In this document: piece by piece, positions 1,679 through 62,668 of the stretch | Numbering within the stretch: position 1 is the first letter of the stretch | Layout of the letters: each line of letters begins with the position of its first letter | Virus record (IMG/VR): IMGVR_UViG_3300037504_000201 | Location: 1 to 64,000 of that record | Length of the DNA stretch: 64,000 bases | DNA from: a virus | Lineage: Duplodnaviria > Heunggongvirae > Uroviricota > Caudoviricetes | Direction: 5' to 3' (one strand) | The notes under the pieces: generated by a model | The model's database searches: none | Told to the model about the DNA's origin: nothing | What the model saw: only the letters and a program-made list of their open reading frames with translations | Position numbers and translations under genes: made by a program

Positions 1679-1766
1679 CACGGTTCCGTGTTAATCAATT
1701 TGAGATAATTGATTGTCTTAAAATATAATAATAATGTTTTAAGCCAATCAATTAAGTCAAATTGAA
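1678..1766. repeat. AT-rich composite palindromic element, copy 1
   Basis: TAACACGGTTCCGTGTTA palindrome, then left arm AATCAATTTGAGATAATTGATT, an AT-rich spacer and right arm AATCAATTAAGTCAAATTGA. TTGAGA-18-TATAAT on the + strand (1700-1729). Confidence 0.8.
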
Positions 1767-4924: not shown

Positions 4925-4938
4925 GAAGGAGATAAACA

Positions 4939-6149: not shown

Positions 6150-6158
6150 GAGGGAGAA

Positions 6159-7167: not shown

Positions 7168-7174
7168 AGGAGAG

Positions 7175-7396: not shown

Positions 7397-7674
7397 ACCT
7401 ACCAACCGACAAAACCAAGCTGGACCACCTCGTCGCCGCCGTGCTGCTCAAGCTAGGCGATGCGACCGAGGCTCAAGAGGTAGTGGACGAGCTGGGGGCG
7501 ATGGGCTACGACGTGAGCGAATTCTCCAAACATGCTTGCGGGCACTGCCTGGCCCGCTTGCGCCGTGGGCACCCGGCAATCGCAGACCGCTACCGGGGCA
7601 CAAGTAATGTGTGGTCCCTCACGCGCATCGGGCGCGCGCGGGCCGAACGGTGGGCAGAGAGGATAGAGGTGTAA
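7393..7674 (+). CDS. hypothetical protein
   Basis: ATGA overlap (translational coupling). Confidence 0.5.
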   Translation: MNLPTDKTKLDHLVAAVLLKLGDATEAQEVVDELGAMGYDVSEFSKHACGHCLARLRRGHPAIADRYRGTSNVWSLTRIGRARAERWAERIEV

Positions 7675-7675
7675 T

Positions 7676-8278
7676 ATGGAATACATTGATAATCTGATGG
7701 ACAAGCTGGAAGTGGTATTCGCCCCACCGTGGAAGCGTATACCTGGTAACACAATCGTCGCCGGCGATTACATCGACGTGAGCGTCAAAGGCCAATCCGG
7801 GAAGGTCGTCATTAACTTGTACTGTCGCCCTGACTGGCGCCTGCTCTATGAACGCTACGGACAAAGCGTGCTGGACGCGCGGGGAGACGAGCAATCCAAG
7901 ACGATAGCCGTGACGTGGGTGTACCCAAGTGCTGACGCAGTCGATCCGCAAGACGTCAGTCGGCGCGTGGAGTTCTTTCTGCGCGAGTTTGGCGTTGCGC
8001 ACCTGGTTGACCTCGACCTATGGGACGCGGCGGCGCTGTTGGTCGGCAACGGGCCGAAGTGGTGGGCGTACACAGAGATCCCGCTTGTCGAACGAGAGAT
8101 CAAGGACGGAGTGGTCACGGCGCACTACCGGCGCAACGATGAGGGTGAGGTGGTAGGATTCTTGCACGTCAAGCGCGCGTCCATTGACTTACCAGACGGC
8201 GCCGACAATATGTCGCTGACGTGGTCGGGCACGCCGGAAGAGATCAAGTCAGTCTGGGAGACGCTAGACTTCGCATAG
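7676..8278 (+). CDS. hypothetical protein
   Basis: 200-aa ORF. Start is 2 nt after the upstream stop. Confidence 0.55.
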   Translation: MEYIDNLMDKLEVVFAPPWKRIPGNTIVAGDYIDVSVKGQSGKVVINLYCRPDWRLLYERYGQSVLDARGDEQSKTIAVTWVYPSADAVDPQDVSRRVEFFLREFGVAHLVDLDLWDAAALLVGNGPKWWAYTEIPLVEREIKDGVVTAHYRRNDEGEVVGFLHVKRASIDLPDGADNMSLTWSGTPEEIKSVWETLDFA

Positions 8279-8289
8279 ATATATGACTT

Positions 8290-8350
8290 TGTTGATTCTC
8301 CTAAAACATTATTATTATATTTTAAGAGAATCAATTATGTCAAATTGAAT
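8290..8350. repeat. AT-rich palindromic element, copy 2 (right arm only)
   Basis: Arm GAATCAATTATGTCAAATTGAAT. TTGACA-18-TATAAT on the minus strand, so it points antisense here. Confidence 0.7.
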
Positions 8351-10149: not shown

Positions 10150-10155
10150 TTCAAT

Positions 10156-10184
10156 TTGACACAATTGATTTTTTGTTGTATGAT
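10156..10184 (+). promoter_or_regulatory. promoter within truncated element copy 3
   Basis: Arm TCAATTTGACACAATTGATT gives TTGACA-17-TATGAT pointing at 10208. Confidence 0.6.
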
Positions 10185-10207: not shown

Positions 10208-11170
10208 ATGAGTACTACTAAAATAGAATGGACCAACAAGACTTGGAATCCCATTACCGGATGCACGAAGGTCAGCGCCGGTTGCCAGCACTGTTATGCA
10301 GAGCGCATGGCGCGGCGGTTGGCCGGGCGCTTTGGCTACCCAGAGGCGCCGCATCATTTCGATGTGACGCTGCACCCCGACCGATTGGACGAACCGCTGC
10401 GCTGGCGCAAGCCACGGCGGGTGTTTGTGTGCTCGATGTCGGATCTGTTTCACGAGGATGTGCCGGATGAGTACATTTGCGATGTATTTTATACAATGCA
10501 TCGATGTACACAGCACACATTCCAGGTGCTCACGAAGCGACCCGCTCGGATGTTGGAGTGGTTCAATCGCCCTGCTGCATCACTCAGTAAGTGGCATAGG
10601 CCGCTACCCAATGTTTGGCTGGGCGTCACCGCCGAAAACCAGAAAGCCGCCGACGAGCGCATACCGCTGCTGCTCAAATGCCCGGCGGCGGTGCGGTTCG
10701 TGAGTTGCGAGCCGTTGCTGGGTGAGATTGTATTGGAAGCTCGCCCGAATGAAAATTGTCGTTCTTGTTTCGGCGCTGGATTCCAGCGCGGCGGAATGAT
10801 TGGCGATGTCGAGTGTCATTGCTGGGGCGATGGGTATCTAGGTAGTAATGGCGGTCCATCGCTCGACTGGGTAATCGTCGGCGGTGAGAGCGGACCCGGC
10901 GCACGCCCGATGGACCCAAGCTGGGCGCGTTCGTTACGTGACCAGTGTCAGGACGCTGGTGTGGCGTTCTTTTTCAAGCAGTGGGGTGAGTGGATTCACG
11001 AAAACCAAGCCAATGATTCATTGCGCCCAACTTCGTGCGGAGGACTAGGGGCTCTGATGGACAGAGGGAAAGTCATAACCCTAGACGGTGAGAGCTTTTT
11101 TTGGCGCGTCGGCAAGAAGCGCGCCGGTCGTCTGCTCGACGGGCGCGAATGGAATGAGTACCCCATCTAA
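10208..11170 (+). CDS. phage Gp37/Gp68 family protein (DUF5131)
   Basis: N-terminus EWTNKTWNPITGCTKVSAGCQHCYAERMA is the signature of this family. Confidence 0.8.
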   Translation: MSTTKIEWTNKTWNPITGCTKVSAGCQHCYAERMARRLAGRFGYPEAPHHFDVTLHPDRLDEPLRWRKPRRVFVCSMSDLFHEDVPDEYICDVFYTMHRCTQHTFQVLTKRPARMLEWFNRPAASLSKWHRPLPNVWLGVTAENQKAADERIPLLLKCPAAVRFVSCEPLLGEIVLEARPNENCRSCFGAGFQRGGMIGDVECHCWGDGYLGSNGGPSLDWVIVGGESGPGARPMDPSWARSLRDQCQDAGVAFFFKQWGEWIHENQANDSLRPTSCGGLGALMDRGKVITLDGESFFWRVGKKRAGRLLDGREWNEYPI

Positions 11171-11186
11171 GGAAGGAGACACTTCG

Positions 11187-11369
11187 ATGGAATTCAAGTA
11201 CCGCGACACCACAGCAACAATCGAGCAGACCGACCCATGGACCGTGCGCGTCACTACCGGCGCCGGGAACGTCATCGAGATTCACATCACGTCAGACGAT
11301 AGCGCCGACGGCGAAACCGGCGCCATCCTGGAGTGTGACGTGATCCAGACGGCGCAAGGGTCGCTTTAA
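11187..11369 (+). CDS. hypothetical small protein
   Basis: Internal Met with RBS AAGGAGACA. Confidence 0.45.
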   Translation: MEFKYRDTTATIEQTDPWTVRVTTGAGNVIEIHITSDDSADGETGAILECDVIQTAQGSL

Positions 11370-11770
11370 TGATAATCTCAATAGCCATCCACAGGGGCAC
11401 ACTCGCCGTCGTCACCTACGACGGCGCCGAGGTGACGTGCATCAAGACCTTGGCGATGAACCGCACGACGTGGCCCGACCTTTGGAACACGCTGTTCGGT
11501 TACGCCGCCGGCCGGGCACGCCAGAACGGCGGCAAGGTTGGCAAAGTCGTGCTGTACCAGAACGGCGGGGACATATCGGAGACCGAACGGATGTTCGGGT
11601 TGCTGACGGGCGTGGCGGGCGAGTTCAATTGCCCGCTTGAGCGGGCGCATTGTGACGACGAGGATGAGGCGCGCGCGTGGCGCATGTTGCCGGGCGGTGA
11701 GGATACCGCCGTGGCGCTGGCGCTGGGTGCGGCGATGAAGGTGATAAACAGAAAGGAAGATGAAAAATGA
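11369..11770 (+). CDS. RNase H-like fold protein, possible RuvC-like resolvase
   Basis: N-terminus MIISIAIHRGTLAVV and C-terminal ALALGAAMKV are RuvC-like, but the N-terminal Asp is not conserved. Confidence 0.25.
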   Translation: MIISIAIHRGTLAVVTYDGAEVTCIKTLAMNRTTWPDLWNTLFGYAAGRARQNGGKVGKVVLYQNGGDISETERMFGLLTGVAGEFNCPLERAHCDDEDEARAWRMLPGGEDTAVALALGAAMKVINRKEDEK

Positions 11771-12384
11771 AATACCCAAAAATTGAAACGTTGTGGAATC
11801 GCGGGGACGACTTTAAAGTCATGCCCGGAGATTTCAGAATGCCAGAGTTTGTGCTTGTCAAATCTTGGCTGATCACCGAGAAAATTGATGGGCGCAATCA
11901 TCGCGTGATCCTAAACGTAGACGGCACTGTCGAGCATCGCGGACGAACCGACCGCGCGCAATTTGCCGACTTTGAGCTTGAAGCGGCGCAGCGTATCATT
12001 GACGACGATTTGGTGCGCGCCGCCTTCGACCGAGGCTCACAAGCCGTTCTTTACGGGGAGCTGTACGGCCCTAAGATTCAAAAGGGAGGTGTGTATGGTG
12101 ATGAGATTCAGTTTAGACTGTTTGATGTTCGCGTTGGCGATTGGTGGCTAAATTGGAGAGACGTTGAGGATGTGGCGCAAAAGATCAACGTATCGACTGT
12201 GCCGCTGATTTACGAAGATGAATTTTTACCGACCTGCAAGGATGAGCTTGGGGACTATTTTACTGACGGCAGCTATGTCGGCGGCGACAGACCGGAGGGC
12301 ATTGTGGCGCGAACAGACCCTCTTTTATTCACTCGACGCGGAGAGCGTCTAATGTGGAAGCTAAAATTTAAAGATTTCAAATGA
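11767..12384 (+). CDS. ATP-dependent RNA/DNA ligase-like nucleotidyltransferase
   Basis: Motif I TEKIDGRN (KxDG). 205 aa, Rnl2-like size. Confidence 0.6.
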   Translation: MKYPKIETLWNRGDDFKVMPGDFRMPEFVLVKSWLITEKIDGRNHRVILNVDGTVEHRGRTDRAQFADFELEAAQRIIDDDLVRAAFDRGSQAVLYGELYGPKIQKGGVYGDEIQFRLFDVRVGDWWLNWRDVEDVAQKINVSTVPLIYEDEFLPTCKDELGDYFTDGSYVGGDRPEGIVARTDPLLFTRRGERLMWKLKFKDFK

Positions 12385-13367
12385 CCACCACTGACGAACT
12401 CCTTGACCGGCTAGCCCGGCACTTTGGCTCGGGTCGCATCACCGACCAGCGGGGATACACACACGTGGATTGCCCGTTCCCCGGTTGCGACGTCGAGGCC
12501 AAGGACCGCGCTTGTTCGTACTGGCTAAAGGACGGCTACGTCCGGGCCGGGTGCTTCAAGTGCGGCTTGCTGACCAAGGAGTTCCTAGACCTATCCATCG
12601 GCTACCGTTCCAATGGCTCGGCGCCAATCAGACGCGCAAGGCGGCAGAAGAAGGCGCCGCCCAAGCCAACCTACTACGCCTGGAAGCAGCCGGGGCAAGC
12701 GGAGATCATCCTGCGCCAGCAACTCAATCACCCCGATCGGGTGCGGCTTTGGCAAGAGTACCGACCCTTTGACGTGGCGGACTTGGACCGCTGGGAGCAC
12801 GGGGTAGGCGTGCTGCCCAACACCGCTTGTCGCCACCTTCGCCTCACCTATCCCGTCCGAGCACGTGGCGGACGCATCGTGGCGTTCCGGGGGCGCCGGA
12901 TAGACTGTGATTGCCGTGGCAAGTGGCTGACGTGCGGCGGCGGCAAGGTACAAAAGACGCTCATGATCTGCGGGCCGCTTGAACCAGGTCGCGTCGTCGT
13001 CATCGCCGAAAGCCCAATTGACGCACGCCTCGCCTACAAATTTGAGCCCGAGTACACCTACGTGGCATCGGGCGGCGGGGCCGGGCTATGGAACGACGAT
13101 TGGACCAGGCGCATCGCCGCTAGCTCCCCCGCCAAGGTCATCGTGTGGTTTGACAACGACCTCGCCGGTCAAGCGGTTGGGGACACGCGTGATAGGCTCG
13201 CGCGGGAGTGGTGGCTCAAACACCCCAACGCGCCACGCGGGCCGATTGCGAACGGGATTAGACTTTTTAACCGATTGCGGTTCAAGCTCCCCGTCGAGTT
13301 GTACGACTGGGGGGATGCACCGCCCAAGAGCGACATAAGCAGTTTGATAATAAGGAGGATGAAGTGA
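12381..13367 (+). CDS. DNA primase (zinc finger plus Toprim)
   Basis: N-terminal Cys cluster. IAESPIDA and WFDNDLAGQ resemble Toprim E and DxD motifs. Confidence 0.6.
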   Translation: MTTTDELLDRLARHFGSGRITDQRGYTHVDCPFPGCDVEAKDRACSYWLKDGYVRAGCFKCGLLTKEFLDLSIGYRSNGSAPIRRARRQKKAPPKPTYYAWKQPGQAEIILRQQLNHPDRVRLWQEYRPFDVADLDRWEHGVGVLPNTACRHLRLTYPVRARGGRIVAFRGRRIDCDCRGKWLTCGGGKVQKTLMICGPLEPGRVVVIAESPIDARLAYKFEPEYTYVASGGGAGLWNDDWTRRIAASSPAKVIVWFDNDLAGQAVGDTRDRLAREWWLKHPNAPRGPIANGIRLFNRLRFKLPVELYDWGDAPPKSDISSLIIRRMK

Positions 13368-13558
13368 CCGACAAATACTTGGTAGTGATGTATGGCAAAG
13401 ATGGAACATACGTGCATGAATGGAGCAACGTCGATGATGCGTGGATTGACTACAACAACATCGCCCAGCAAGGCTTTGGTGTCGTCATCTCACAAGTCAT
13501 TCAAGATTCAAGCATGCCCGACACGTATGCAGATTGCAACGCAGGAGAGGCAGAGTGA
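13364..13558 (+). CDS. hypothetical protein
   Basis: Overlaps the upstream stop. Confidence 0.45.
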   Translation: MTDKYLVVMYGKDGTYVHEWSNVDDAWIDYNNIAQQGFGVVISQVIQDSSMPDTYADCNAGEAE

Positions 13559-13746
13559 TGACCGATAACCGCCCAATCCTAGACCAGCTGCTGGACTTGC
13601 TCAACGTCAGCACCTACGGCGAGATCGTGCCGGCGGTGCGGGCGCTGATGAATGACTATGACGCATTTGTCATCAGCTCGTTTAAGCATTTAGCAGAAGT
13701 GGACGAATTCATAAAAGAGATGAGGGAGCTATGCACCAAGCCATAA
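13558..13746 (+). CDS. hypothetical protein
   Basis: Internal Met with RBS GGAGAGG. Confidence 0.45.
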   Translation: MTDNRPILDQLLDLLNVSTYGEIVPAVRALMNDYDAFVISSFKHLAEVDEFIKEMRELCTKP

Positions 13747-14150
13747 TCGACCAAAAGACAGACGTAAAAGAACAACTGCGCTACATTCGGCGCCAGATTG
13801 ACCAAGACGCATTCTTGATCAACCAGATCGAACGCGGGATAGTATTGAACGGCAAATCATACGCCCGTCTCATAGACACGCACACGCTGCGCATCGTCAC
13901 CGATGAACACGAACTTACCTCCGCCATCCGTCACGCTAACACCGTGCCCGGCTTTTGGGCCAGCCCCATCGGCCAGATTGTCGCGCGCGGTATTGTGCGC
14001 GACTTGCCAACATTGTCGCTGACCGAGTACGCCGAGCGCGAGGGTATCACGTTAAGCGCCGCCTCCCACAGAGTGCGACGAGGGGCGGCGGTGGCAGTCC
14101 CGGACCCGGATGAGCCGAACCCGCGCAAGGCGACGAGGGTGCTGGAATGA
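13731..14150 (+). CDS. DNA-binding protein with C-terminal HTH
   Basis: LSLTEYAEREGITLSAASHRVRRG is HTH-like. Confidence 0.45.
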   Translation: MHQAIIDQKTDVKEQLRYIRRQIDQDAFLINQIERGIVLNGKSYARLIDTHTLRIVTDEHELTSAIRHANTVPGFWASPIGQIVARGIVRDLPTLSLTEYAEREGITLSAASHRVRRGAAVAVPDPDEPNPRKATRVLE

Positions 14151-14479
14151 TAAATCGAACTCACGACCCACACGACATCGCGCACTTTGAGGCCGTGCGC
14201 CTGGCTCGCGAGGCCGGGCTGGACCCGGTATACTACCACGACCCGTTCGCCAAGCCGCCGGTGATGTTCGGCGACGCGCCCGACATCCGGCGGCGCGGGA
14301 TACTGGACGGGTCGGACGAGGCGCCGTTCGACCTTGGCGACAGCTGGCGCGCGCTGCCCGCCGGAAACACGGGCTATTGGTTCGTGGTCCCAAGGCTTTC
14401 CGCGCCAGATAGCCGATTGAGGACGTTGATTTGCACGCGACGTGAGATCGTGGCGTGCGATCCGTTGGATTTGCTATGA
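14147..14479 (+). CDS. hypothetical protein
   Basis: ATGA overlap with the upstream gene. Confidence 0.45.
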   Translation: MINRTHDPHDIAHFEAVRLAREAGLDPVYYHDPFAKPPVMFGDAPDIRRRGILDGSDEAPFDLGDSWRALPAGNTGYWFVVPRLSAPDSRLRTLICTRREIVACDPLDLL

Positions 14480-14673
14480 ACCTAACCCCCAAGACTTTCG
14501 CGTCCTACGACAAGAACGAGCTGGACGAACAGGAGCGCGCGTTCCTTGCTGGCACGTCAGGCGTCGTGCGCAAGATGGACTTTAACGTCACCGAAGTGGA
14601 CGACAGGCCATTCTTCGCCGTTCACATATTGTACGAAGAGTTCCCAGATCACACACAGATAAAGGAGGTATGA
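14476..14673 (+). CDS. hypothetical protein
   Basis: Internal Met overlapping the upstream stop. Confidence 0.4.
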   Translation: MNLTPKTFASYDKNELDEQERAFLAGTSGVVRKMDFNVTEVDDRPFFAVHILYEEFPDHTQIKEV

Positions 14674-15275
14674 TGAGTGACGATCCGCTTTTGGACAAAT
14701 ACGGACTAAAACCAGAAGACGTGATGGTATGCTTTCTCGAACGCGCAATAGGAGCGCACCCTACAGTTCTGTACTTTCTGAGCGAGGCAACCTACTGCCC
14801 GGAAAGCCCGTCCATGTTCGATGGCTCTTTGTCAAATGACTTTGACCGAACATCAAAGCTGCTAGAGAAGATGCTTTACGATGCGCTTCCAGGCGGCACT
14901 TATGACCGATTGCTTGCGCGAATGCAGCAACGCAAAGCGAGCCATTACGCATTCTCGTATGGCTTACACGGCAACGGCGCGGGCAAGTGGGAGAGAAAAG
15001 TAATCGCAGAGGTAGTGGGGCTATTTGAGATTCAACGCGAGAGTGAGTGGGGGAAAGATAAAGAAGTTTACTCGGCTGTCAAGAACGCCGATGACGCCAT
15101 ACACCTACTCGACGAATCTGTGATCCATTCCGCGTTTGCAAGCATTGACAATGTCCGACAGTTCGTTCTTCTATTCTTTAAAAATTGGTCAGAAGATGAC
15201 GGCGAAACAATGCAAGAGAGATGTTACGCCGCCGTCAACAAAGCCAACCAAAAAATGACAGGCAAGGAGGTATGA
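14670..15275 (+). CDS. hypothetical protein, paralog A
   Basis: RBS AAGGAGG. Shares LPGGTYDRLL...RKAS with 15272-15799. Lower-GC segment. Confidence 0.55.
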   Translation: MMSDDPLLDKYGLKPEDVMVCFLERAIGAHPTVLYFLSEATYCPESPSMFDGSLSNDFDRTSKLLEKMLYDALPGGTYDRLLARMQQRKASHYAFSYGLHGNGAGKWERKVIAEVVGLFEIQRESEWGKDKEVYSAVKNADDAIHLLDESVIHSAFASIDNVRQFVLLFFKNWSEDDGETMQERCYAAVNKANQKMTGKEV

Positions 15276-15799
15276 TGCACAAGCTAAAGATCAACAAGGC
15301 GACAGATTCAGAGGGTGGGACGCTCGTCATTGATGAGCGAGGGCTGGACGGCACAGCCGATACAGGAGTGCTACTGTCATTCTACGAAGGTGAAGCCGAG
15401 AAGTTAGAGCGATTCCTGTACAACACGCTCCCCGGCGGCACCTACGACCGGTTGCTATCCGATATGATGACGCGCAAGGCGAGCTTGTTCAAGGTGCGAT
15501 GGGGGGATGGCAATGCCTCAGAGCCGCCAGGAAAACCGTTCCGATGGGACGGCGAGATTGTCCAGCGAGTCCTGGACAAGTGCCACGAGTTGCCTGGCTT
15601 ACGTGACTGCATTGACACCACCGACAGCGCTCGCAAGCTACTCAACGACTCAACACTCGTGCCCGGACTCGATGGTCTGGATAGCGTGATGGTGTGGATG
15701 GAGCGATTTATGGCGAACTGGCCCCCCGCAATAGGGATGACGGAAAGCGAACGTTATCTTTTCGCCGTCAACAAAGCCAACAGCATAGGTGGTTTGTAG
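15272..15799 (+). CDS. hypothetical protein, paralog B
   Basis: Identical RBS context AAGGAGGTATGATG. Paralog of 14670-15275. Confidence 0.55.
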   Translation: MMHKLKINKATDSEGGTLVIDERGLDGTADTGVLLSFYEGEAEKLERFLYNTLPGGTYDRLLSDMMTRKASLFKVRWGDGNASEPPGKPFRWDGEIVQRVLDKCHELPGLRDCIDTTDSARKLLNDSTLVPGLDGLDSVMVWMERFMANWPPAIGMTESERYLFAVNKANSIGGL

Positions 15800-15801
15800 T
15801 G

Positions 15802-16062
15802 ATGGACGAGATATCCATATTTGAGCTAAAATGGACAGATACCGTTGTTGACGGCGTGATTGATATGTGCGAGACTTGGGACGTCGGAAGGTTTATCAAT
15901 ACGCGCGCAGACGTCGAGTTGCTGTTGTATTGCGCCGACTTGCGCGGCAAGGACATGTACACATGGTCATTCGATTTTACCAAGGCCCTGGTCGCCAACA
16001 AGGGCATGACCAGCGACCTTGAGCGATACAGAGACGCGATAAGGAGCGCGAACGATGACTAA
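15802..16062 (+). CDS. hypothetical protein
   Basis: Internal Met after RBS AGGTGG. Confidence 0.4.
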   Translation: MDEISIFELKWTDTVVDGVIDMCETWDVGRFINTRADVELLLYCADLRGKDMYTWSFDFTKALVANKGMTSDLERYRDAIRSANDD

Positions 16063-16924
16063 CCCACTATCCAACTCACTCGCCATCTTCGACTTGTCAG
16101 GCACGCTCACAGTCGAGCGGGGCGGCCCACCCAACATGCCCGGCGAGGTGGTGTTGGTTGACGGTGCGCGGGACGTGGTGCGCTGGCTTGAAAATAGCAG
16201 CGCCAGCGTTTACATCGCGTCCAACCAAGGCGGGGTCGCATACGGCTACCTTGACATCGACACGTGCGACGCGATTATGTCTAGATGCGCGATGCTGCTT
16301 GATCTTCCCAAAGAGCGCTTCTTCTGGTGCCCCCATCACCCCAAGGGCAACGTCAGCCCCTGGAACAAGGCTTGTTACAACCGCAAGCCCAACCCCGGCA
16401 TGCTCTTGACCATCATGCAAGAGACTGGCGTCCCATCCAAGCGAACGCTGTTCGTCGGGGACCGTAAAAGCGACGTAGACGCCGCGGGGCGAGCTGGCGC
16501 GCACTATGTCCACGCATCGCCGATTCGGCACGTGTTCGGGCGCGCCTGGTCGCTCTTCTCCCGGCCCGTCTTTATCATCGACGGTACCGAGGTTGCGCGC
16601 GACCTACGCGTCAAGCTGGTCAAGAAAGGGATCGAAGGCGATTTTTTAGACGAGATGATAGAGCTGTACGTCGGCCCGGCGATTGACGATGTTGAGCCGA
16701 CCTTCACACACAACAGCAAGCTATTCTACGCTGTCGATGGTGACGACGGCACCGTGACACAGCTGGCCCAAGTCGGTGCCCAGCGCATCGAGTACGTGGA
16801 GCAAGACACGTTCGACCGATTTGCCGAGATCAAACGTCGCTTGCACGGCGGGTGTAGCGACGACGTGTTGGTGGATTTGTTTGTTGAGCATCTACTCGTC
16901 GAGCGTGGTTACGCGACGAGATGA
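16055..16924 (+). CDS. HAD-superfamily phosphatase (GmhB/PNKP 3'-phosphatase-like) with extra C-terminal domain
   Basis: FDLSGTL (motif I variant), RKPNPGM and GDRKSDV, the HAD IIIA signatures. Confidence 0.6.
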   Translation: MTNPLSNSLAIFDLSGTLTVERGGPPNMPGEVVLVDGARDVVRWLENSSASVYIASNQGGVAYGYLDIDTCDAIMSRCAMLLDLPKERFFWCPHHPKGNVSPWNKACYNRKPNPGMLLTIMQETGVPSKRTLFVGDRKSDVDAAGRAGAHYVHASPIRHVFGRAWSLFSRPVFIIDGTEVARDLRVKLVKKGIEGDFLDEMIELYVGPAIDDVEPTFTHNSKLFYAVDGDDGTVTQLAQVGAQRIEYVEQDTFDRFAEIKRRLHGGCSDDVLVDLFVEHLLVERGYATR

Positions 16925-17033
16925 AGCATGGGGCGTGATCTCACACAGAAAGGAGGATGCTCCGCTAAATTGGCAATGAGGGAATGCCCCCGGCGGTACG
17001 TGCCCCGCCGCCGGGGCAAGCGGAGTGAGTAAT

Positions 17034-17243
17034 ATGACGAGAGCTGTAAGAATGGCAACTGGATTAGTTTTTATGGCCCTTCTGTTGCTACATCCACTGA
17101 GTAGGTCTGTGATTTATTTTTTACTACCATTGGGTAGTGGCGCAGATGATTACGTGGCGATTGCTTTGTTGGTGATCGCCGCAACAATCTTGTTCATCAA
17201 GGGATGGACAAGTATTCCAGATTTTTTCAAGAAAGGAAAGTGA
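17034..17243 (+). CDS. small two-TM membrane protein (possible SPFH partner)
   Basis: Two hydrophobic helices. Lower GC. Immediately upstream of the SPFH gene. Confidence 0.5.
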   Translation: MTRAVRMATGLVFMALLLLHPLSRSVIYFLLPLGSGADDYVAIALLVIAATILFIKGWTSIPDFFKKGK

Positions 17244-17244
17244 T

Positions 17245-18117
17245 ATGTACAAGTTTCGTTTTGTTCTCGCATTGGTTGTTCTGTCGCTACTGATTAGCGG
17301 ATGTTACTTACCGGGTACCGTGGATAGCTCCGAGGTCGGTCTGAAGATTACAAGCGGTAAGGTCGAGGATGTCCTGGAGCCTGGGCGCTACACCGACGTG
17401 GGTTGGTATACGTCTCTCGCTACCGTGGATACGTCTGCGAAGACCACTGACTGGAAGGACCCGGACCTGGTGACTAGAGATAAACAGCCCATCGGCCTTA
17501 CTATCTCGGTGACCTACGCACGAAACCGTGACCACAAGTCTATTAAACAGATGTGGACCCAGTACAATACAGAGGCGCGAGACGATAAAGCGCTGGCTGC
17601 ACAGGTGCTTAAACGTGTCCCTGGCGCAGCTAAGGACCTTACTACCCGTTACAGCCTGGACGAGATGCTCGGGATTACGCCAGACGCCCCTGGTCGGGCT
17701 ATCGTGACCCAAGCGCTATTCGACGCCTTAGAGCCGGAGCTTGAGGAGATCGGCATCAGTTTGCTCAATGTCACCATCGGTAACATTGCCCCGAGTGAAC
17801 AGTATCTTAATCTCTTGGAGGAAAAGGCCAATGCGCAAGCATCTACAGAGGTAGCGCGGGAGATGACTAAACAGCTTGAGGAACAGCTCAAACAAGAGGA
17901 AGCTCAAACCCAAATCGAGTTGGAGAAGGCACGTCGTCAGAACGAGGTCAATTCTGAACTAGCAAAGACGTATGAGCAATCGCCTGAATACTTTGAGCTG
18001 GAGAAGCTACGCTTGATGCAGGGCGTGATCGGCGGTAAAGACAAGCTCATTTTTATTCCACCCGGTACCGACCTGTCGTTATTGTTCTCTGCTGATGGAT
18101 TAGTCCCGCTTCAATGA
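17245..18117 (+). CDS. SPFH/band-7 (HflK/prohibitin-like) domain lipoprotein
   Basis: Signal peptide with lipobox LLISGC. EVGLKITSGKVEDVLEPGRY and a C-terminal coiled coil typical of SPFH. GC content is clearly below the surrounding genome. Confidence 0.7.
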   Translation: MYKFRFVLALVVLSLLISGCYLPGTVDSSEVGLKITSGKVEDVLEPGRYTDVGWYTSLATVDTSAKTTDWKDPDLVTRDKQPIGLTISVTYARNRDHKSIKQMWTQYNTEARDDKALAAQVLKRVPGAAKDLTTRYSLDEMLGITPDAPGRAIVTQALFDALEPELEEIGISLLNVTIGNIAPSEQYLNLLEEKANAQASTEVAREMTKQLEEQLKQEEAQTQIELEKARRQNEVNSELAKTYEQSPEYFELEKLRLMQGVIGGKDKLIFIPPGTDLSLLFSADGLVPLQ

Positions 18118-18305
18118 ACGAATACTCATTCAACCTGGCAGGCTGGACGGCGCATCGAGAAGACACGGTGCTGACGATGCTACTGGCAAACGTGATACAA
18201 GACCGGGTCACCGTCAACGTCGAGCCGGGCAGTCAAGTAGACGGCGCGGGCGTGGTGATGCAATGCGACGAGGAACGCGCCAAGGCCATCGTGGGCGTGG
18301 CGTAA
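18114..18305 (+). CDS. hypothetical protein
   Basis: ATGA overlap with the upstream gene. Confidence 0.4.
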   Translation: MNEYSFNLAGWTAHREDTVLTMLLANVIQDRVTVNVEPGSQVDGAGVVMQCDEERAKAIVGVA

Positions 18306-18361
18306 GAGAAGTACCATCGCAATTTGATGCGCTTTTACCGGCGCAAGGAGGGAACAAAGAC

Positions 18362-18712
18362 GTGGAAGAGGATGTGAGGCTTATAAATCTACTGAGTGAA
18401 AATGTTGAGTCTCTAACGACGGAAGTGGTGCAAGACATCATTGACGGATCGGACGAGGCACTTGTATTTTTTGCCGGGGACCCATTTAACCGGCGAGGTA
18501 TTGAGCCGGATGTCGTGCGCCGAATTCACACGCGCGACGCCAATACGACGGCGCGGCTGATCGTCGAGCGACTACGGTCGTGGAACAAAAGGCGACAAAG
18601 AGCGTGCATGGACCACAGTCGCCATCTTCAAATGATCAACGAGCACCTTTATCACGAGATAGAGGAAGCGGACAAAGAGCTTAAAGATTGGCTGTATGGG
18701 CCGGGAGGGTAG
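18362..18712 (+). CDS. hypothetical protein
   Basis: GTG after RBS AAGGAGGG. Start is uncertain. Confidence 0.35.
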   Translation: MEEDVRLINLLSENVESLTTEVVQDIIDGSDEALVFFAGDPFNRRGIEPDVVRRIHTRDANTTARLIVERLRSWNKRRQRACMDHSRHLQMINEHLYHEIEEADKELKDWLYGPGG

Positions 18713-18714
18713 CC

Positions 18715-19062
18715 ATGCCATATCACGTAACCTGGGACGACTTTTACGACGACCAGTTGCCAGACGAAGCGGAGCCAAGCGAGCGTGTGGCCTTTATCCA
18801 TTCCGGCGTCATTGTCTATGCAACATCGAACCGCTTTTATTACAAGGTGTTTAGCAAATCGCGGGGTTGGTACGCTATCGATATTCGGCAAGCTGCACAC
18901 TTGATGATTGCGCCAGAGTCGGTTGATGAGGTGGTGAATGGCGACCACCGACCATTGATTCAGATGCTGATTGACCAGGCCTTCGGCGCAACGGAGCCGG
19001 AGGACGTATTGATAAACCATATGGAAAGATTGAAAGGAGATAAACAAGAATGGCCGATTTAA
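18715..19062 (+). CDS. hypothetical protein
   Basis: RBS GGGAGGG. Confidence 0.5.
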   Translation: MPYHVTWDDFYDDQLPDEAEPSERVAFIHSGVIVYATSNRFYYKVFSKSRGWYAIDIRQAAHLMIAPESVDEVVNGDHRPLIQMLIDQAFGATEPEDVLINHMERLKGDKQEWPI

Positions 19063-19256
19063 CACTTTACGGTGCATGGATTATGGGCGATAACGAGTGG
19101 GGCACCACCGGCACCGGCGAGGTGTTCAACACACCCCACGTCGGCGTAGCCCGCGCGCAGGCGTGGCAATGGTGCAAATTTAGAAACACCGTCCCGGCCA
19201 AGTTTGGCGACGACGGCAAACCGATATTCTTAGGTGAACTCCCAGCGGACGAATAA
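19050..19256 (+). CDS. hypothetical protein
   Basis: RBS GGAGATAAACAAG. Confidence 0.5.
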   Translation: MADLTLYGAWIMGDNEWGTTGTGEVFNTPHVGVARAQAWQWCKFRNTVPAKFGDDGKPIFLGELPADE

Positions 19257-19416
19257 TCCGCTATGGAATAGGGGGCGTATAGGCACGACAAGAAAGGGGG
19301 TACTCATCAAAGCACTTAAAACTAGACCGGGCACGCTACATCTGAGGGGTCAGATAGCTGACCTGGTTGGCTTGAGGTAGTGGGCGGTGGTCGTGCCCCC
19401 GTCACCGCCCACGATT

Positions 19417-19506
19417 TACACGGTTCCGTGTTACTTAGCCGACTTAGTTTTAGCTCTTAAAACATATATTATATATTTTAAGAGAATCAATTATGTCAAA
19501 TTGATT
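19417..19506. repeat. AT-rich palindromic element, copy 4 (hairpin-extension type)
   Basis: TACACGGTTCCGTGTTA, then CTTAGCCGACTTAGTTTTAGCTC, spacer and arm GAATCAATTATGTCAAATTGATT. The TTGACA-18-TATATAAT it carries is on the minus strand. Confidence 0.75.
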
Positions 19507-19526
19507 TTAGATGAATAGGAGGTAAA

Positions 19527-19691
19527 ATGATGCAAGTAGTATGGATGGTGTTAGGTGTGGCGCTATGCTTCACCGGCGGCCTTGGCGTCGGGCTTGTCCT
19601 GGGCCGCGCCAACGGGTACAAGGAGGCGAGTCGTGTCAGGCGGCGCTATTACGGCCTGGGCGAGGAAGGGGCAGAACGTGACTTTACGTGA
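19527..19691 (+). CDS. small membrane protein (54 aa)
   Basis: RBS AGGAGGTAAA. One TM helix (VLGVALCFTGGLGVGLVLG). Not in the ORF track because it is under 60 aa. Confidence 0.45.
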   Translation: MMQVVWMVLGVALCFTGGLGVGLVLGRANGYKEASRVRRRYYGLGEEGAERDFT

Positions 19692-19908
19692 TTATCAAGT
19701 GGTCGAGGGCTACACGGCCCACATGCTGCGTAGTCGCGTCGTCAAGGCGATGCGTGACGGCTGGCGCCCCATTGGCGGTGTGGCGATGATGTACGACGGC
19801 AAGGTGTCGCGCTACGCCCAGGCGATGGTAAAGGACGAGGAAGATCAGTCGGTTTTGGACCGTCCCATTATCGACTATGCAGAACAGTTTAACGAAAGGG
19901 GTAAGTAG
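19678..19908 (+). CDS. hypothetical protein
   Basis: GTG start after GAAGGGG. Overlaps the upstream ORF's end. Confidence 0.4.
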   Translation: MTLRDYQVVEGYTAHMLRSRVVKAMRDGWRPIGGVAMMYDGKVSRYAQAMVKDEEDQSVLDRPIIDYAEQFNERGK

Positions 19909-20216
19909 TGATGACCAATAAAGAGCTACAAATAAATGTCAAGCGCGCGCTTGAACTGGCGCTTGAGCTTGAGCAAGCCGCGGCCGACGTGGCACAAGCG
20001 CTCGACGCATTCAATGAGGCAAGTTGCGAGCTTGGCGCCGCAAATCAGCGCCGACACGAACTGGCAATGGAGCTTCAACAGGTCGCGGACTTGAAGGGGC
20101 ATGTGCCCGGCGCGTCGGTGTGTATCCAGACCGGTGACGACATCGTGGTCACCATCACGCGCGTGCAAGGCGAACCGGTCAAGGCGTCGCGCCGCAAGCT
20201 ATACCGCGCCACTTGA
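19908..20216 (+). CDS. hypothetical protein
   Basis: ATGA overlap. Last gene of the + block. Confidence 0.5.
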   Translation: MMTNKELQINVKRALELALELEQAAADVAQALDAFNEASCELGAANQRRHELAMELQQVADLKGHVPGASVCIQTGDDIVVTITRVQGEPVKASRRKLYRAT

Positions 20217-20240
20217 CACGGGCGCGCGCCTGCGATACAA
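20212..20240 (+). promoter_or_regulatory. sigma70-type promoter
   Basis: TTGACA-17-TATACAAT-like (TACAAT). The -35 overlaps the stop codon of 19908-20216. Confidence 0.5.
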
Positions 20241-20246
20241 TAGAAG

Positions 20247-20320
20247 CATCTCCTCCTTGAGAGGCACCAATCGCTTGCCCCATCGGGCCACCGCACCCCC
20301 GATGGGGCAGCCTCTTTTTT
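20247..20320 (+). ncRNA. candidate small RNA (about 70 nt) with anti-SD motif
   Basis: Sits between the promoter at 20212 and an intrinsic terminator. Contains UCUCCUCCUU, complementary to the AGGAGG RBSs used throughout. Confidence 0.3.
20270..20320 (+). terminator. rho-independent terminator
   Basis: Stem TTGCCCCATCGGG / CCCGATGGGGCAG followed by CTCTTTTTTAT. It sits at the convergence of the + and - blocks. Confidence 0.75.
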
Positions 20321-29228: not shown

Positions 29229-29584
29229 TAGCTCAAATCCACCATCGAGATGACCATCTCGAGTGAGCTTACCGCGCCGCCAGTCTCAGCGCCGCCCGGC
29301 GTCACGGTGCAATACACACTCGAATAATCCGACCACACGCGCCCAATCTCTGGCTCTATTAGCGTCGCGGTGTGGGTGCTGCCATCGTCAAAATCAAACC
29401 AGTTGACGTTGTTCAGGTTCAACGCACGCCCGGACACGCGCAGCCGGCAAGAGCCGTACTTGCGCTTGATGGGCGCGCCAAGTCCATCACGCCCCACCAC
29501 CAAAGCATCGCCGTATTCCCATTCGTACTCTGTCGGCTGGGGAAACAATGGCGCGTCGTCAATCTCAAAGGCGTGTTCTGTCAT
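29228..29584 (-). CDS. tail protein
   Basis: ATGA coupling. Confidence 0.4.
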   Translation of the reverse strand: MTEHAFEIDDAPLFPQPTEYEWEYGDALVVGRDGLGAPIKRKYGSCRLRVSGRALNLNNVNWFDFDDGSTHTATLIEPEIGRVWSDYSSVYCTVTPGGAETGGAVSSLEMVISMVDLS

Positions 29585-30342: not shown

Positions 30343-30358
30343 TGTTAACCTCCTGATA

Positions 30359-30451
30359 AATCAATTTGAGATAATTGATTGTCTTAAAATATATAATATA
30401 TGTTTTAAGAGCTAAAACTAAGTCGGCTAAGTAACACGGAACCGTGTACAC
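30359..30451. repeat. AT-rich palindromic element, copy 5 (reverse-complement of the copy-4 type)
   Basis: Arm AAATCAATTTGAGATAATTGATT, spacer, then GAGCTAAAACTAAGTCGGCTAAG and TAACACGGAACCGTGTA. Confidence 0.75.
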
Positions 30452-30453
30452 TT

Positions 30454-30546
30454 TAACCATAATGACTTGGGCTGCTAAGTTGAAGCACCCACAGCATAAA
30501 GCCGATTGCCGCCAATAGAGCCAGCGCGGTGATGATGCATTCCATG
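30454..30546 (-). CDS. 30-aa hydrophobic peptide (MECIITALALLAAIGFMLWVLQ...)
   Basis: RBS GGAGTGGAAC 6 nt upstream. Single TM helix. Sits between the tape measure gene and element copy 5. Confidence 0.35.
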
Positions 30547-30579
30547 TTCCACTCCTTTATACACGGTTTAGTGTGCACT

Positions 30580-47143: not shown

Positions 47144-47164
47144 AATATCCCCTTCGTATAGATA

Positions 47165-47233
47165 TCTGACTTTATCGATTCTCCTAAAACATTATTATTA
47201 TATTTTAAAAGAATCAATTATCTCAAATTGATT
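47165..47233. repeat. AT-rich palindromic element, copy 6
   Basis: CTGACTTTATCGATTCTCCTAAAAC, spacer, arm GAATCAATTATCTCAAATTGATT. TTGAGA-18-TATAAT on the minus strand points at 46523-47143. Confidence 0.75.
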
Positions 47234-55747: not shown

Positions 55748-55855
55748 TACACGGTTCCGTGTAACTTAGCCGACTTAGTTTTAGCTCTTAAAACATTATA
55801 TATATATTTTAAGGGAATCAATTATGTCAAATTGATTGCTCTTGAATGCACTAGG
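55748..55855. repeat. AT-rich palindromic element, copy 7 (hairpin-extension type)
   Basis: TACACGGTTCCGTGTA, CTTAGCCGACTTAGTTTTAGCTC, spacer, arm GAATCAATTATGTCAAATTGATT, extension TGAATGCACTAG. The minus-strand TTGACA-18-TATATATA is in sense. Confidence 0.75.
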
Positions 55856-58945: not shown

Positions 58946-59036
58946 AATTCAATTTGACATAATTGATCGGCTTAAAACATATATTATATATTTTAAAAGA
59001 ATCAATTATGTCAAATTGATTGTGCGTGAATGCACT
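58946..59036. repeat. AT-rich palindromic element, copy 8 (complete two-arm copy)
   Basis: Left arm ATTCAATTTGACATAATTGATCGG, spacer, right arm GAATCAATTATGTCAAATTGATT plus GTGCGTGAATGCACTAG. Minus-strand TTGACA-18-TATATAAT. Confidence 0.8.
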
Positions 59037-62578: not shown

Positions 62579-62652
62579 AAATCAATTTGACTTAATTGAT
62601 TGGCTTAAAACATATAATATATATTTTAAAGGAATCAATTAAGTCAAATTGA
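62579..62652. repeat. AT-rich palindromic element, copy 9 (two-arm)
   Basis: Arms AATCAATTTGACTTAATTGATT and GAATCAATTAAGTCAAATTGAAT. TTGACT-18-TATATA on both strands. Confidence 0.8.
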
Positions 62653-62668
62653 ATTCTACCGATTGGTA

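What the first reader, a model, noticed from the sequence alone, without database searches (positions are those of the whole stretch)
19417..19506. Three element copies carry their consensus promoter antisense to the flanking genes
In copy 2 (8290-8350, before the helicase), copy 4 (19417-19506) and copy 5 (30359-30451, before the amidase) the arm sits next to the RBS of the downstream gene. The TTGACA-18-TATAAT promoter reads away from that gene. It reads into the upstream gene's 3' end, or into the hairpin-rich non-coding stretch 19257-19420.

This could make antisense or non-coding RNAs that regulate the early-to-late switch. In these copies the arm could instead act as an operator downstream of a weaker sense promoter. 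In copy 2 that would be TTGATT-17-TTATAT, and in copies 4 and 5 TTTTAG-N-TATATT.
Basis: partly seen in the sequence, partly recalled or inferred. Interest (0 to 1): 0.6.

Follow-up and report, generated by a model that had tools for sequence, protein, structure and literature searches.

The report
Inverted promoter cassettes in a phage
An uncultured phage carries eight copies of a conserved host-type promoter cassette, and three of them point against the surrounding genes, so they probably make short antisense RNAs or block read-through; this is a known kind of arrangement and is untested here.

Summary
The window is a novel siphovirus-like phage from a metagenome. It has eight copies of a near-palindromic AT-rich element and a ninth locus with the arm alone.

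All eight share one polar block of about 51 bp: TCAATTTGAnnTAATTGATT-nnn-TTAAAA-(12 A/T)-G-TTTTARG. This reads as TTGAnn, an 18-bp spacer, TATA(A/T)(T/A), 6 nt, then G at +1. I call this promoter P-beta.

P-beta points with the genes at five copies, two of them directly after strong terminators. It points against the genes at 8276-8349, 19417-19506 and 30359-30451, where its arm lies 5-12 nt from the next gene's ribosome-binding site. Only the 8276 copy is truly TTGACA-18-TATAAT. Copies 4 and 5 have TATATA, which lacks the -7 T.

The sense-direction promoter in these three copies is degenerate: its -35 is ATGACT or CCGACT. The arm is a 22-bp palindrome over the -35, which looks like an operator.

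Best reading: a repressible host-RNAP promoter cassette whose three inverted copies fire antisense at the 3' ends of three gene blocks. No RNA data, no informative relatives and no known host exist. This is a new variant of known kinds (bidirectional promoters, PeSL cassettes, OOP-like antisense RNAs). Interest is moderate to low.

The parts
19417..19506 (-). Copy 4 (C type), P-beta antisense to the + strand genes. Components: 14-bp palindrome ACACGGTTCCGTGT at 19418-19431; degenerate second arm or 'C leader' at 19432-19456; AT core at 19457-19481; beta arm at 19476-19505. On the - strand: -35 TTGACA at 19499..19494, -10 TATATA at 19475..19470, predicted +1 G at 19463.
8276..8349 (-). Copy 2 (B type), P-beta antisense. 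On the - strand: -35 TTGACA at 8343..8338, 18-bp spacer, -10 TATAAT at 8319..8314, +1 G at 8307. The left end overlaps the TAG stop (8276-8278) of gene 7676-8278. The beta arm lies 5 nt from the helicase SD.
30359..30451 (+). Copy 5 (C type, inverted), P-beta antisense to the - strand genes. On the + strand: -35 TTGAGA at 30366-30371, -10 TATATA at 30390-30395, +1 G at 30402. The 14-bp palindrome is at 30434-30447 and is followed by ACACTTTAA. It is 98% identical to copy 4 over 91 nt.
   Evidence: (I2)
19257..19416 (.). Non-coding stretch that the copy-4 P-beta would read into. It contains the hairpin GGGCGGTG..CACCGCCC, followed on the + strand by ACGATTT, a weak + strand terminator candidate. 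Folding is not better than shuffles on either strand.
1693..1766 (+). Copy 1 (full: beta arm plus alpha arm), P-beta sense. TTGAGA-18-TATAAT, +1 G at 1736. The alpha arm lies 3 nt from the SD of gene 1780-1995. The 14-bp palindrome at 1678-1691 sits just upstream.
10150..10184 (+). 'Copy 3': the arm alone (TTCAATTTGACACAATTGATT) supplies the -35 of a sense promoter TTGACA-17-TATGAT ahead of DUF5131 gene 10208-11170.
47159..47232 (-). Copy 6 (B type), P-beta sense. TTGAGA-18-TATAAT, +1 G at 47190, with a 47-nt leader to the ATG at 47143.
55748..55837 (-). Copy 7 (C type), P-beta sense, +1 G at 55794. It lies about 60 nt after the strong terminator at 55917-55898 and is followed by the leaderless-mRNA promoter at 55726-55697.
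58947..59020 (-). Copy 8 (full), P-beta sense, +1 G at 58978. It follows the terminase stop codon and is followed by promoter 58904-58876. A 97%-identical relative (L122) has the beta arm starting at the same place.
62580..62653 (-). Copy 9 (full), P-beta sense, +1 G at 62611. It lies directly after the terminator at 62700-62674 and is followed by promoter 62565-62536.

Best explanation
The repeated element is a polar promoter-operator cassette of about 55 bp, read by the host's housekeeping-sigma RNA polymerase.

Anatomy (shown by the sequence):
- A -35 hexamer (TTGACA, TTGAGA or TTGACT) is embedded in a 22-bp palindrome, AATCAATT-N6-AATTGATT. I take this palindrome to be the operator of an unidentified dimeric regulator.
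- An invariant 18-bp spacer follows, then an A/T-only -10 region, then a G at +1.
- Downstream of +8 there is one of three things: a second copy of the operator (full copies), or one of two decayed versions of it (B and C types) that have lost the TTG of the mirrored -35.

Placement: six of the nine loci have this promoter in the sense direction at the head of transcription units. The three named copies are the same cassette in the opposite orientation. Each sits at the 3' boundary of a gene block: 1780-8278, 10208-19256 and 47143-30453.

Mechanism (inferred):
- RNA polymerase starts at about 8307 (-), 19463 (-) and 30402 (+).
- It makes non-coding RNA antisense to the end of the upstream block.
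- While bound or firing head-on, it hinders read-through into the next gene (helicase; 19527-20216; the amidase and tail-fibre genes).
- Occupancy of the arm by the regulator would switch this off.
- The arm lies next to the ribosome-binding site simply because the cassette fills the short intergenic gap.
For: - Conserved block. 8 of 8 cores carry the same polarity. The palindrome TTAAAA..TTTTAA is broken at one fixed position, which puts a G exactly 7 nt after the -10 hexamer on the beta strand and a C at -12 of the mirrored promoter.
- Invariant geometry. The -35 keeps TTGA in 12 of 12 arms, varies only at hexamer positions 5-6, and the spacer is 18 bp in all eight.
- Sense use. Copies 7 and 9 follow strong intrinsic terminators, so a new promoter is needed there. 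Copies 1 and 6 have 44-47-nt leaders to a start codon preceded by an SD. The arm alone provides the -35 of a normal sense promoter at 10156-10184.
- Host RNAP uses this consensus. Two other repeated promoter families are TTGACA-17/18-TATA(A/C)T.
- The B and C second arms align to the alpha arm but read ATGACT, CTGACT or CCGACT, so one direction has been disabled.
- Operator-like features. The half-sites TCAATT and AATTGAT are invariant although they lie in the promoter's spacer and upstream flank, while the centre varies. The two arm centres in full copies are 53 bp apart, about five helical turns.
- Literature. At symmetric bidirectional promoters, strengthening one -35 boosts that direction and strongly reduces the other through polymerase competition (PMC12825309). 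Convergent promoters exert transcriptional interference (PMC6593788, PMC5001618). Lambda OOP is an antisense RNA that suppresses CII activities (PMC5869508).
Against: - There is no transcript evidence of any kind.
- At the 18-bp register, copies 4 and 5 (and 7, 8, 9) have TATATA without the -7 T, normally a key -10 base. TATAAT occurs only at a 20-bp spacer. Copies 4 and 5 may therefore be weak.
- Orientation relative to genes (5 sense, 3 antisense among the eight; 6 to 3 with copy 3) is compatible with random insertion.
- No regulator was identified. Twenty early proteins gave no DNA-binding domain: no Pfam family reached its curated cut-off except an RNA ligase.
- No clear terminator bounds the antisense RNAs. 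The C-type hairpin is only -9 to -11 kcal/mol, with a z-score near 0.
- A head-on promoter in the middle of the late operon (copy 5) would be costly if strong.
- The host is unknown, so its promoter rules are inferred from the phage's own promoter families.
Confidence: 0.45

Rival explanations
1. Orientation-neutral cassette. The elements are regulatory cassettes spread and homogenised by recombination, as with PeSLs in T4-type phages. They land in intergenic gaps in either orientation. The three inverted copies are tolerated by-products whose antisense output, if any, is noise without a regulatory role.
For: - The 5:3 orientation split does not differ from chance.
- Copies 4 and 5 are 98% identical over 91 nt, while other pairs are 64-93%, pointing to recent copying or gene conversion.
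- B and C types each occur in both orientations relative to genes.
- PeSLs are repeats conserved over nearly 100 bp that combine a promoter and a stem-loop and mediate modular shuffling (PMC2839356).
- A 92%-identical relative has an extra 388-aa gene right after the amidase, so this region is plastic.
- Bacterial antisense transcription is pervasive but rarely conserved (PMC3419515).
Against: - The mirrored -35 is specifically degraded in single-armed copies, which suggests selection on direction.
- Orientations alternate perfectly over the first six loci (+,-,+,-,+,-). Each of three blocks therefore has a sense copy at its head and an inverted copy at its tail. The chance of such alternation is about 1 in 32, a post-hoc estimate.
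- No target-site duplications or transposase were seen.
Confidence: 0.25
2. The arm works only as a protein-binding site or a 5'-UTR element for the sense gene. In copies 2, 4 and 5 (and the alpha arm of copy 1), the palindrome just upstream of the ribosome-binding site is an operator or roadblock on DNA, or a small hairpin operator in the mRNA. Sense transcription comes from read-through or the weak sense promoter. The TTGACA inside the arm is not used as a -35 there.
For: - Four arms end 3-12 nt before an SD.
- The arm is a 22-bp palindrome with invariant half-sites.
- In full copies the second arm lies at about +10 to +30 of P-beta, a classic downstream-operator position.
- In the distant relative L121, a CTTGACATAAC motif forms the outer ends of 76-nt palindromes. 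It also sits about 25 bp upstream of real TTGACA-17-TATAAT promoters, where it has no -10 partner.
Against: - TTGA is invariant in 12 of 12 arms even though it breaks the palindrome's centre symmetry. It always sits 17-18 bp from an A/T -10-like block.
- The arm hairpin in RNA is weak (-5 to -8 kcal/mol, z about 0 to -0.9).
- Arm-to-SD spacing is not fixed.
- The sense promoters in copies 4 and 5 score only 2-3 of 6 in the -35.
Confidence: 0.17
3. RNA-level hairpins. When read through in polycistronic mRNA, the palindromes fold into long AU-rich hairpins. These would act as RNase III processing sites, stability elements or attenuators between genes. The promoter-like hexamers would be secondary.
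For: - Full copies fold at -29.5 to -32.8 kcal/mol (z -7 to -9).
- In every pair tested, the fold is more stable on the P-beta strand than on the other strand, through G-U pairs: -29.5/-25.6, -32.0/-29.1, -32.8/-27.2, -23.0/-18.1 and -22.4/-9.5.
Against: - Any palindrome folds like this.
- C-type copies, including the finding's own copy 4, lack the second arm and fold only to about -19 kcal/mol.
- Copies 7 and 9 sit right after strong terminators, so little read-through RNA would contain them.
- For copy 2 the better-folding strand is the antisense strand.
- Hairpin function does not explain the invariant 18-bp geometry and the +1 G.
Confidence: 0.1

Closest known systems
Pseudo-symmetrical bidirectional sigma-70 promoters (Warman, Grainger and co-workers; PMC12825309, PMC10268837)
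   Same: - An A/T-rich, near-palindromic -10 region is flanked by -35 hexamers on both sides in the full copies.
- Direction is set by the relative quality of the two -35 elements.
- The stronger side is expected to suppress the weaker by polymerase competition.
   Different: - Here the whole 74 bp is a conserved repeated cassette, with extra invariant palindromic arms.
- It lies between co-directional genes, not at divergent gene pairs.
- The predicted opposite starts are about 12-13 bp apart, whereas 18, 10 and 23 bp are the common spacings.
- In the three named copies the second -35 is degraded.
PeSL (promoter-early stem-loop) cassettes of T4-type phages (PMC2839356, PMC4122927)
   Same: - Repeated intergenic cassettes, conserved over about 70-100 bp, combining a strong sigma-70-like promoter with a stem-loop.
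- AT-rich.
- Often end at the SD of the next gene.
- Likely recombination substrates.
   Different: - As described, PeSLs end at the SD and start codon of the downstream gene, so their promoter reads into it.
- PeSLs carry G/C-rich terminator stems.
- PeSLs cluster in hyperplastic ORFan regions of myoviruses.
- Here the stems are AT-rich, three copies are inverted, and the phage is an unrelated siphovirus-like lineage.
Phage cis-antisense RNAs and interfering convergent promoters. Examples: lambda OOP (PMC5869508); lambda PaQ and P22 sar (from my own knowledge); phage 186 pR/pL interference (PMC6593788, PMC5001618).
   Same: A promoter placed at the 3' end of a gene and reading back into it (copy 2 into 7676-8278; copy 5 into 30453-30545 and the tape-measure gene). 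The expected effects are antisense pairing or head-on interference.
   Different: - Those are single, dedicated promoters with defined short transcripts and terminators.
- Here the antisense promoters are copies of the same cassette that drives sense genes elsewhere.
- No terminator or target logic is established.
Dispersed repressor sites: mycobacteriophage L5 stoperators and phiC31 conserved inverted repeats (both from my own knowledge)
   Same: Many copies of a regulator-site-like sequence lie scattered in short intergenic gaps. In L5 the site overlaps a TTGACA -35.
   Different: - Stoperators are asymmetric 13-bp sites, number more than 20, and are orientation-biased.
- Here there are 12 palindromic arms with no orientation bias.
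- No repressor was identified.

Membership tests
Housekeeping-sigma (sigma-70/sigA type) promoter | -35 hexamer close to TTGACA | tested here: met
   TTGACA (copies 2, 4, 7, 8), TTGAGA (1, 5, 6) and TTGACT (9): 5-6 of 6 in all eight.
Housekeeping-sigma (sigma-70/sigA type) promoter | Spacer of 16-19 bp to a -10 hexamer with A at -11 and T at -7 | tested here: inconclusive
   The spacer is 18 bp in all eight. TATAAT is present in copies 1, 2 and 6. Copies 4, 5, 7, 8 and 9 have TATATA (A at -7), with TATAAT or TATATT only at 20 bp.
Housekeeping-sigma (sigma-70/sigA type) promoter | Purine start 6-8 nt after the -10 | tested here: met
   G lies exactly 7 nt after the hexamer in 8 of 8 copies. It is the one fixed break in the palindrome.
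Housekeeping-sigma (sigma-70/sigA type) promoter | Mapped transcription start or in vitro activity | not testable with these tools
   No RNA data; metagenomic contig with unknown host.
Symmetric bidirectional promoter | Usable -35 on both sides of a shared -10 region | tested here: not met
   Applies to the three named copies. The mirrored -35 is ATGACT (copy 2) or CCGACT (copies 4, 5), with -10 CATTAT or CATATA. The feature is met only in full copies 1, 8 and 9.
Symmetric bidirectional promoter | Opposite-strand starts about 10, 18 or 23 bp apart | tested here: inconclusive
   The predicted spacing is about 12-13 bp from geometry alone (with PMC12825309).
PeSL cassette | Strong sigma-70-like promoter plus adjacent stem-loop in a repeated intergenic motif | tested here: met
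PeSL cassette | Stem-loop is an effective, usually G/C-rich terminator, and the promoter reads into the downstream gene | tested here: not met
   The stems are AU-rich and have no consistent U tract. Three copies read away from the downstream gene (PMC2839356).
OOP-like cis-antisense RNA | Promoter convergent with, and overlapping the 3' end of, an upstream gene | tested here: met
   Copy 2's +1 at 8307 lies 29 nt from the stop codon at 8278. Copy 5's +1 at 30402 lies 51 nt from the gene end at 30453. Copy 4 reads into 164 nt of non-coding sequence first.
OOP-like cis-antisense RNA | Short discrete transcript ending at an intrinsic terminator | tested here: inconclusive
   The C leader has a 5-bp hairpin followed by ACACUUU(U)A in copies 5 and 7 (-9 to -11 kcal/mol, z -0.2 to -0.9). 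Copy 4 has no U tract. No terminator was found for copy 2.
Stoperator-type dispersed operator | Orientation bias relative to transcription, and a cognate repressor gene | tested here: not met
   Arms split 6 against 5 by orientation (or 6 against 6 if the sense 'copy 3' arm at 10150-10169 is included). Only sub-threshold matches appeared, and none to a DNA-binding family, in 20 early proteins. The repressor could lie outside the window or be a novel fold.
MITE / Correia-like mobile repeat | Terminal inverted repeats with target-site duplication | tested here: not met
   Inverted arms are present, but the flanks of same-type copies share no duplicated bases (inspection).

The most novel reading that the evidence does not exclude
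The phage uses one switchable promoter cassette for two jobs. Pointing with the genes, it opens a transcription block. Pointing against them, it closes one. Orientations alternate c1+, c2-, c3+, c4-, c5+, c6-. Blocks 1780-8278, 10208-19256 and 47143-30453 are therefore each bracketed by a sense copy at the head and an inverted copy at the tail, where strong intrinsic terminators are absent.

Head-on firing would act as a regulated insulator in place of a terminator. It would gate read-through into the helicase, the 19527-20216 genes and the amidase/tail-fibre module until a regulator binds the arm.

In addition, the 98%-identical inverted copies 4 and 5 could allow inversion of the 10.85-kb tail-fibre segment.
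Probability: 0.12. Interest if true: 0.7.

Novelty: new variant of a known kind. Interest (0 to 1): 0.38.

Why it matters
If the inverted copies fire, the phage would show the same repressible promoter reused as a head-on insulator at module boundaries. That would be a compact way to time helicase, lysis and tail-fibre expression without dedicated terminators. It would also add a phage example to the recent work on symmetric bidirectional promoters.

In practice the value is limited. The phage is an uncultured metagenomic contig with no known host and no informative relatives, so the idea cannot be tested without synthesis or reporter work. Each ingredient (antisense promoters, promoter-plus-stem-loop cassettes, operators over a -35) is already known.

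Tried and rejected
- **Relatives carrying the element.** The exact-pattern scan found 0 in IMG/VR and 0 in GTDB genomes. It found 2 chance hits in AT-rich JGI contigs. A shorter pattern gave only single chance hits. blastn of copy 4 against cultured phages gave only E of about 1 noise.
- **Protein-guided relatives.**
  - TerL has no relative in IMG/VR.
  - Helicase homologues reach at most 44% identity.
  - TerL is at most 55% apart from one 97% fragment.
  - The amidase has a 92% fragment whose contig starts inside the gene.
  - Conservation of copies 2, 4 and 5 could therefore not be tested.
  - L122 shows only that copy 8's arm begins at the same spot.
- **Distant relatives.** L120 and L121 have their own palindrome-plus-promoter arrangements. 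A 12-mer, GACTTAGTTTTA, is shared with L120. I treat shared short motifs as suggestive only, because about one chance 12-mer match is expected across the loci searched.
- **Regulator hunt.** Pfam on 20 early proteins and PHROGs on 10 proteins around copies 4 and 5 found no DNA-binding domain.
- **ncRNA in 19257-19420.** Rfam gave nothing near threshold. Folding z-scores were -1.2 and -1.6. No tRNA was found.
- **Hidden ORFs served by the antisense promoters.** Only ORFs without an SD and running antisense to well-formed genes were seen. Gene 7676-8278 is clearly coding on the + strand, and there is no paralogy with the gene after copy 6.
- **Phage-RNAP promoter reading toward the gene.** I considered this and dropped it. 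No RNAP or sigma gene was seen among the proteins searched, and the block fits sigma-70 geometry on the other strand.
- **Mobile element.** No target-site duplications.
- **Replication origin or telomere-resolution site.** Eight to nine dispersed copies argue against it.

Full report
**What the window is**

The 64-kb window is most of a 77.75-kb metagenomic contig from a siphovirus-like phage with about 58% GC.
- Genes run on the + strand up to about 20.2 kb. They include the helicase at 8374-10149, a DUF5131 gene, an RNA ligase and a Toprim-like protein.
- Genes run on the - strand from about 20.3 kb to the end. They include the large terminase at 59057-60667, the portal at 49952-52396, the tape-measure gene at 30580-33633 and an Amidase_2 gene at 29581-30342.
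- Nothing similar exists among cultured phages at the DNA level. The portal is about 24% and TerL about 39% identical to the nearest cultured phages.

**Checking the observation**

The repeat is real.
- The 29-nt arm has 11 matches at up to 3 mismatches against 0 expected.
- The palindrome ATCAATT-N6-AATTGAT has 12 matches against 0.12 expected.
- The core TTAAAA-W12-GTTTTA occurs at exactly eight loci.
- The repeat finder groups eight copies: 1693, 8276, 19417, 30359 (inverted), 47159, 55748, 58947 and 62580.
- A ninth locus, 10150-10169, has the arm alone.

In the three named copies the conserved arm does abut the next gene's Shine-Dalgarno sequence, and its TTGAnn hexamer reads away from that gene. 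The gene directions are secure.

One correction is needed. 'TTGACA-18-TATAAT' is literally true only for copy 2 (12/12). Copy 4 is TTGACA-18-TATATA and copy 5 is TTGAGA-18-TATATA. In both, TATAAT appears only at an unfavourable 20-bp spacer.

**Anatomy**

I oriented all copies on the strand that carries TTGAnn of the best-conserved arm, which I call beta. All eight then share one block from about -43 to +8:

(A/T)TCAATTTGA-nn-TAATTGATT-nnn-TTAAAA-TATA-(8 A/T)-G-TTTTA(A/G)G.

The large palindrome is broken at one fixed position in 8 of 8 copies. This places a G exactly 7 nt after the -10 hexamer on this strand, and a C at -12 of the mirrored promoter. The element is therefore polar, not symmetric.

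Beyond +8 the copies fall into three types:
- A second 'alpha' arm, in copies 1, 8 and 9.
- A B-type sequence, in copies 2 and 6.
- A C-type sequence, in copies 4, 5 and 7.

B and C align to the alpha arm, but their mirrored -35 reads ATGACT or CTGACT (B) or CCGACT (C), so the TTG is lost.

Each arm is itself a 22-bp palindrome, AATCAATT-N6-AATTGATT. Its half-sites are invariant and its centre is variable, except for the TGA of the -35. In full copies the two arm centres are 53 bp apart.

**Is it a promoter?**

The geometry is that of a housekeeping-sigma promoter. The phage's other repeated promoter families show that the host polymerase uses TTGACA-17/18-TATA(A/C)T.

P-beta is sense at copies 1, 6, 7, 8 and 9:
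- Copies 7 and 9 lie immediately after strong intrinsic terminators.
- Copies 1 and 6 have 44-47-nt leaders ending at an SD and ATG.
- At 10156-10184 the arm alone provides the -35 of an ordinary sense promoter.

I therefore regard P-beta as a real promoter class. This is an inference; nothing has been mapped. By sequence identity the inverted copies are promoter-competent. Copy 2 is the best match in the genome. Copies 4 and 5 are weakened by a -7 A.

**What the inverted copies would do**

Predicted starts are 8307 (-), 19463 (-) and 30402 (+).
- Copy 2 reads into the 3' end of gene 7676-8278, 29 nt away.
- Copy 5 reads into the 30-codon gene 30453-30545 and the tape-measure gene.
- Copy 4 reads into 164 nt of non-coding DNA before gene 19050-19256.

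None of these paths contains a credible ORF with an SD, by inspection.

The non-coding stretch 19257-19416 has one strong hairpin that looks like a weak + strand terminator. Otherwise it folds no better than shuffles (z -1.2 and -1.6), and it has no Rfam match. The C-type leader is weakly structured.

The likely outputs are therefore antisense or non-coding RNA and head-on interference with read-through. Published work on symmetric promoters shows that a stronger -35 on one side suppresses the other direction (PMC12825309). The poor sense promoters in these copies are therefore unlikely to matter while P-beta is free. The palindromic arm over the -35 offers an obvious off-switch.

**A pattern worth noting**

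Along the genome the arm-promoter orientations run +, -, +, -, +, -, -, -, -. Three blocks are therefore each bracketed by a sense copy at the head and an inverted copy at the tail: 1780-8278, 10208-19256 and 47143-30453.

Strong terminators are absent at those tails, whereas they are present before copies 7 and 9. This is post hoc, with about a 1 in 32 chance of perfect alternation over six loci. It is the basis of the 'novel case', not of the main claim.

**Rivals**

1. *Orientation-neutral cassettes* spread by recombination, with the inverted ones being noise.
   - For: the 5:3 split fits chance. Copies 4 and 5 are 98% identical. The PeSL precedent exists (PMC2839356). Antisense transcription is rarely conserved (PMC3419515).
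2. *The arm acts only as an operator, roadblock or 5'-UTR element* for the sense gene.
   - For: four arms sit 3-12 nt from an SD. The distant relative L121 uses a CTTGACATAAC motif where it cannot be a -35.
   - Against: TTGA is invariant, the geometry is fixed, and the arm hairpin in RNA is weak.
3. *RNA hairpins in read-through mRNA.*
   - For: full copies fold at about -30 to -33 kcal/mol, and the fold is consistently better on the P-beta strand.
   - Against: C-type copies lack the second arm, and two full or C-type copies sit behind terminators.

**Comparison with known systems**

The element works like a pseudo-symmetric bidirectional promoter that has been made directional. It resembles PeSL cassettes, in that it is a repeated promoter plus stem-loop at intergenic gaps. 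The inverted copies resemble lambda OOP-type convergent antisense promoters.

It is not a member of any of these families by their defining features (see the membership table). No sequence relative of the element was found in any collection searched.

**Limits**

- There are no transcript data.
- The host is unknown. Amidase homologues at 56% identity come from Planctomycetota MAGs.
- No regulator was identified.
- Close relatives exist only as 1-2-kb fragments that do not cover copies 2, 4 or 5.

**Verdict**

This is a careful and essentially correct sequence observation. The most likely meaning is a repressible host-type promoter cassette, three copies of which face backwards. It is a new variant of known themes, and its regulatory role is plausible but unproven.

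Noticed in passing
window 57651-57721 (-): Rfam type II hammerhead ribozyme hit at 41 bits (gathering score 37, E 6e-5). It lies in the gap between genes 57137-57646 and 57720-58103 of the late strand.
   Followed up: no
window 20213-20315 (+): Consensus promoter TTGACA-17-TACAAT at the very end of the + gene block. About 65 nt later comes a strong terminator (GCCCCATCGGG..CCCGATGGGGC AGCCTCTTTTTTAT). This is a candidate small RNA of about 70 nt at the convergent junction, and it contains CUCCUCC (anti-SD-like).
   Followed up: no
window 46516-46487, 55726-55697, 62565-62536 (-): A second repeated promoter family, TTGACA-18-TATACT. The ATG lies 4-6 nt after the -10, so the mRNAs would be leaderless. 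The spacer carries ACACGG-N4-GTGT.
   Followed up: partly
window 1678-1691, 19418-19431, 30434-30447, 55749-55762 (also 30561-30574): A 14-bp perfect palindrome, ACACGGTTCCGTGT, flanks copies 1, 4, 5 and 7. It shares the motif ACACGG-N4-GTGT with the leaderless promoter family: 8 loci against 0.12 matches expected. This is probably a second operator type.
   Followed up: partly
window 2147-2184, 3016-3053 (+), 58904-58876 (-): A third promoter family, TTGACA-17-TATA(A/C)T. At 2147 and 58904 it has a perfect palindrome ATTCTAGAAT (degenerate, ATTCTCGATT, at 3016) and a TGTG '-16' motif in the spacer. One copy lies just downstream of element copy 8.
   Followed up: no
window 19417-19507 and 30358-30448: Copies 4 and 5 are 91-nt inverted repeats, 98% complementary. 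They bracket 10.85 kb holding the amidase, a PKD-domain 1035-aa protein and other tail-fibre-like genes. This is a possible substrate for inversion or module exchange.
   Followed up: partly
window 8329-8349 and 10150-10170: The helicase gene is flanked by inverted arms, 20 of 21 nt matching. Both -35 hexamers point outward.
   Followed up: partly
window 56706-56805 and 57031-57132: An intergenic unit of about 100 nt is duplicated 325 bp apart (85-92% identity). It carries G/C-rich hairpins.
   Followed up: no
window 46156-46209 (-): A 25-bp perfect inverted repeat plus a U tract forms a very strong terminator. It closes a small self-contained unit of leaderless promoter at 46516, an ORF of about 78 aa, and the terminator, which is moron-like.
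   Followed up: no
L120 9813-9885; L121 273-348 and 7702-7777: Distant relatives (helicase 40% identical) have their own palindromes in the same kind of place.
- L120 has 25-bp perfect arms around TATTATATATAAGACTTAGTTTTAT upstream of the helicase. It shares the 12-mer GACTTAGTTTTA with the C-type copies.
- L121 has 76-nt palindromes with CTTGACATAAC at both ends, arranged as terminator, palindrome, then consensus promoter.
   Followed up: partly
L124 738-1904: A relative with a 92% identical amidase has an extra 388-aa gene between the amidase and the 118-aa gene. The window lacks this gene.
   Followed up: no
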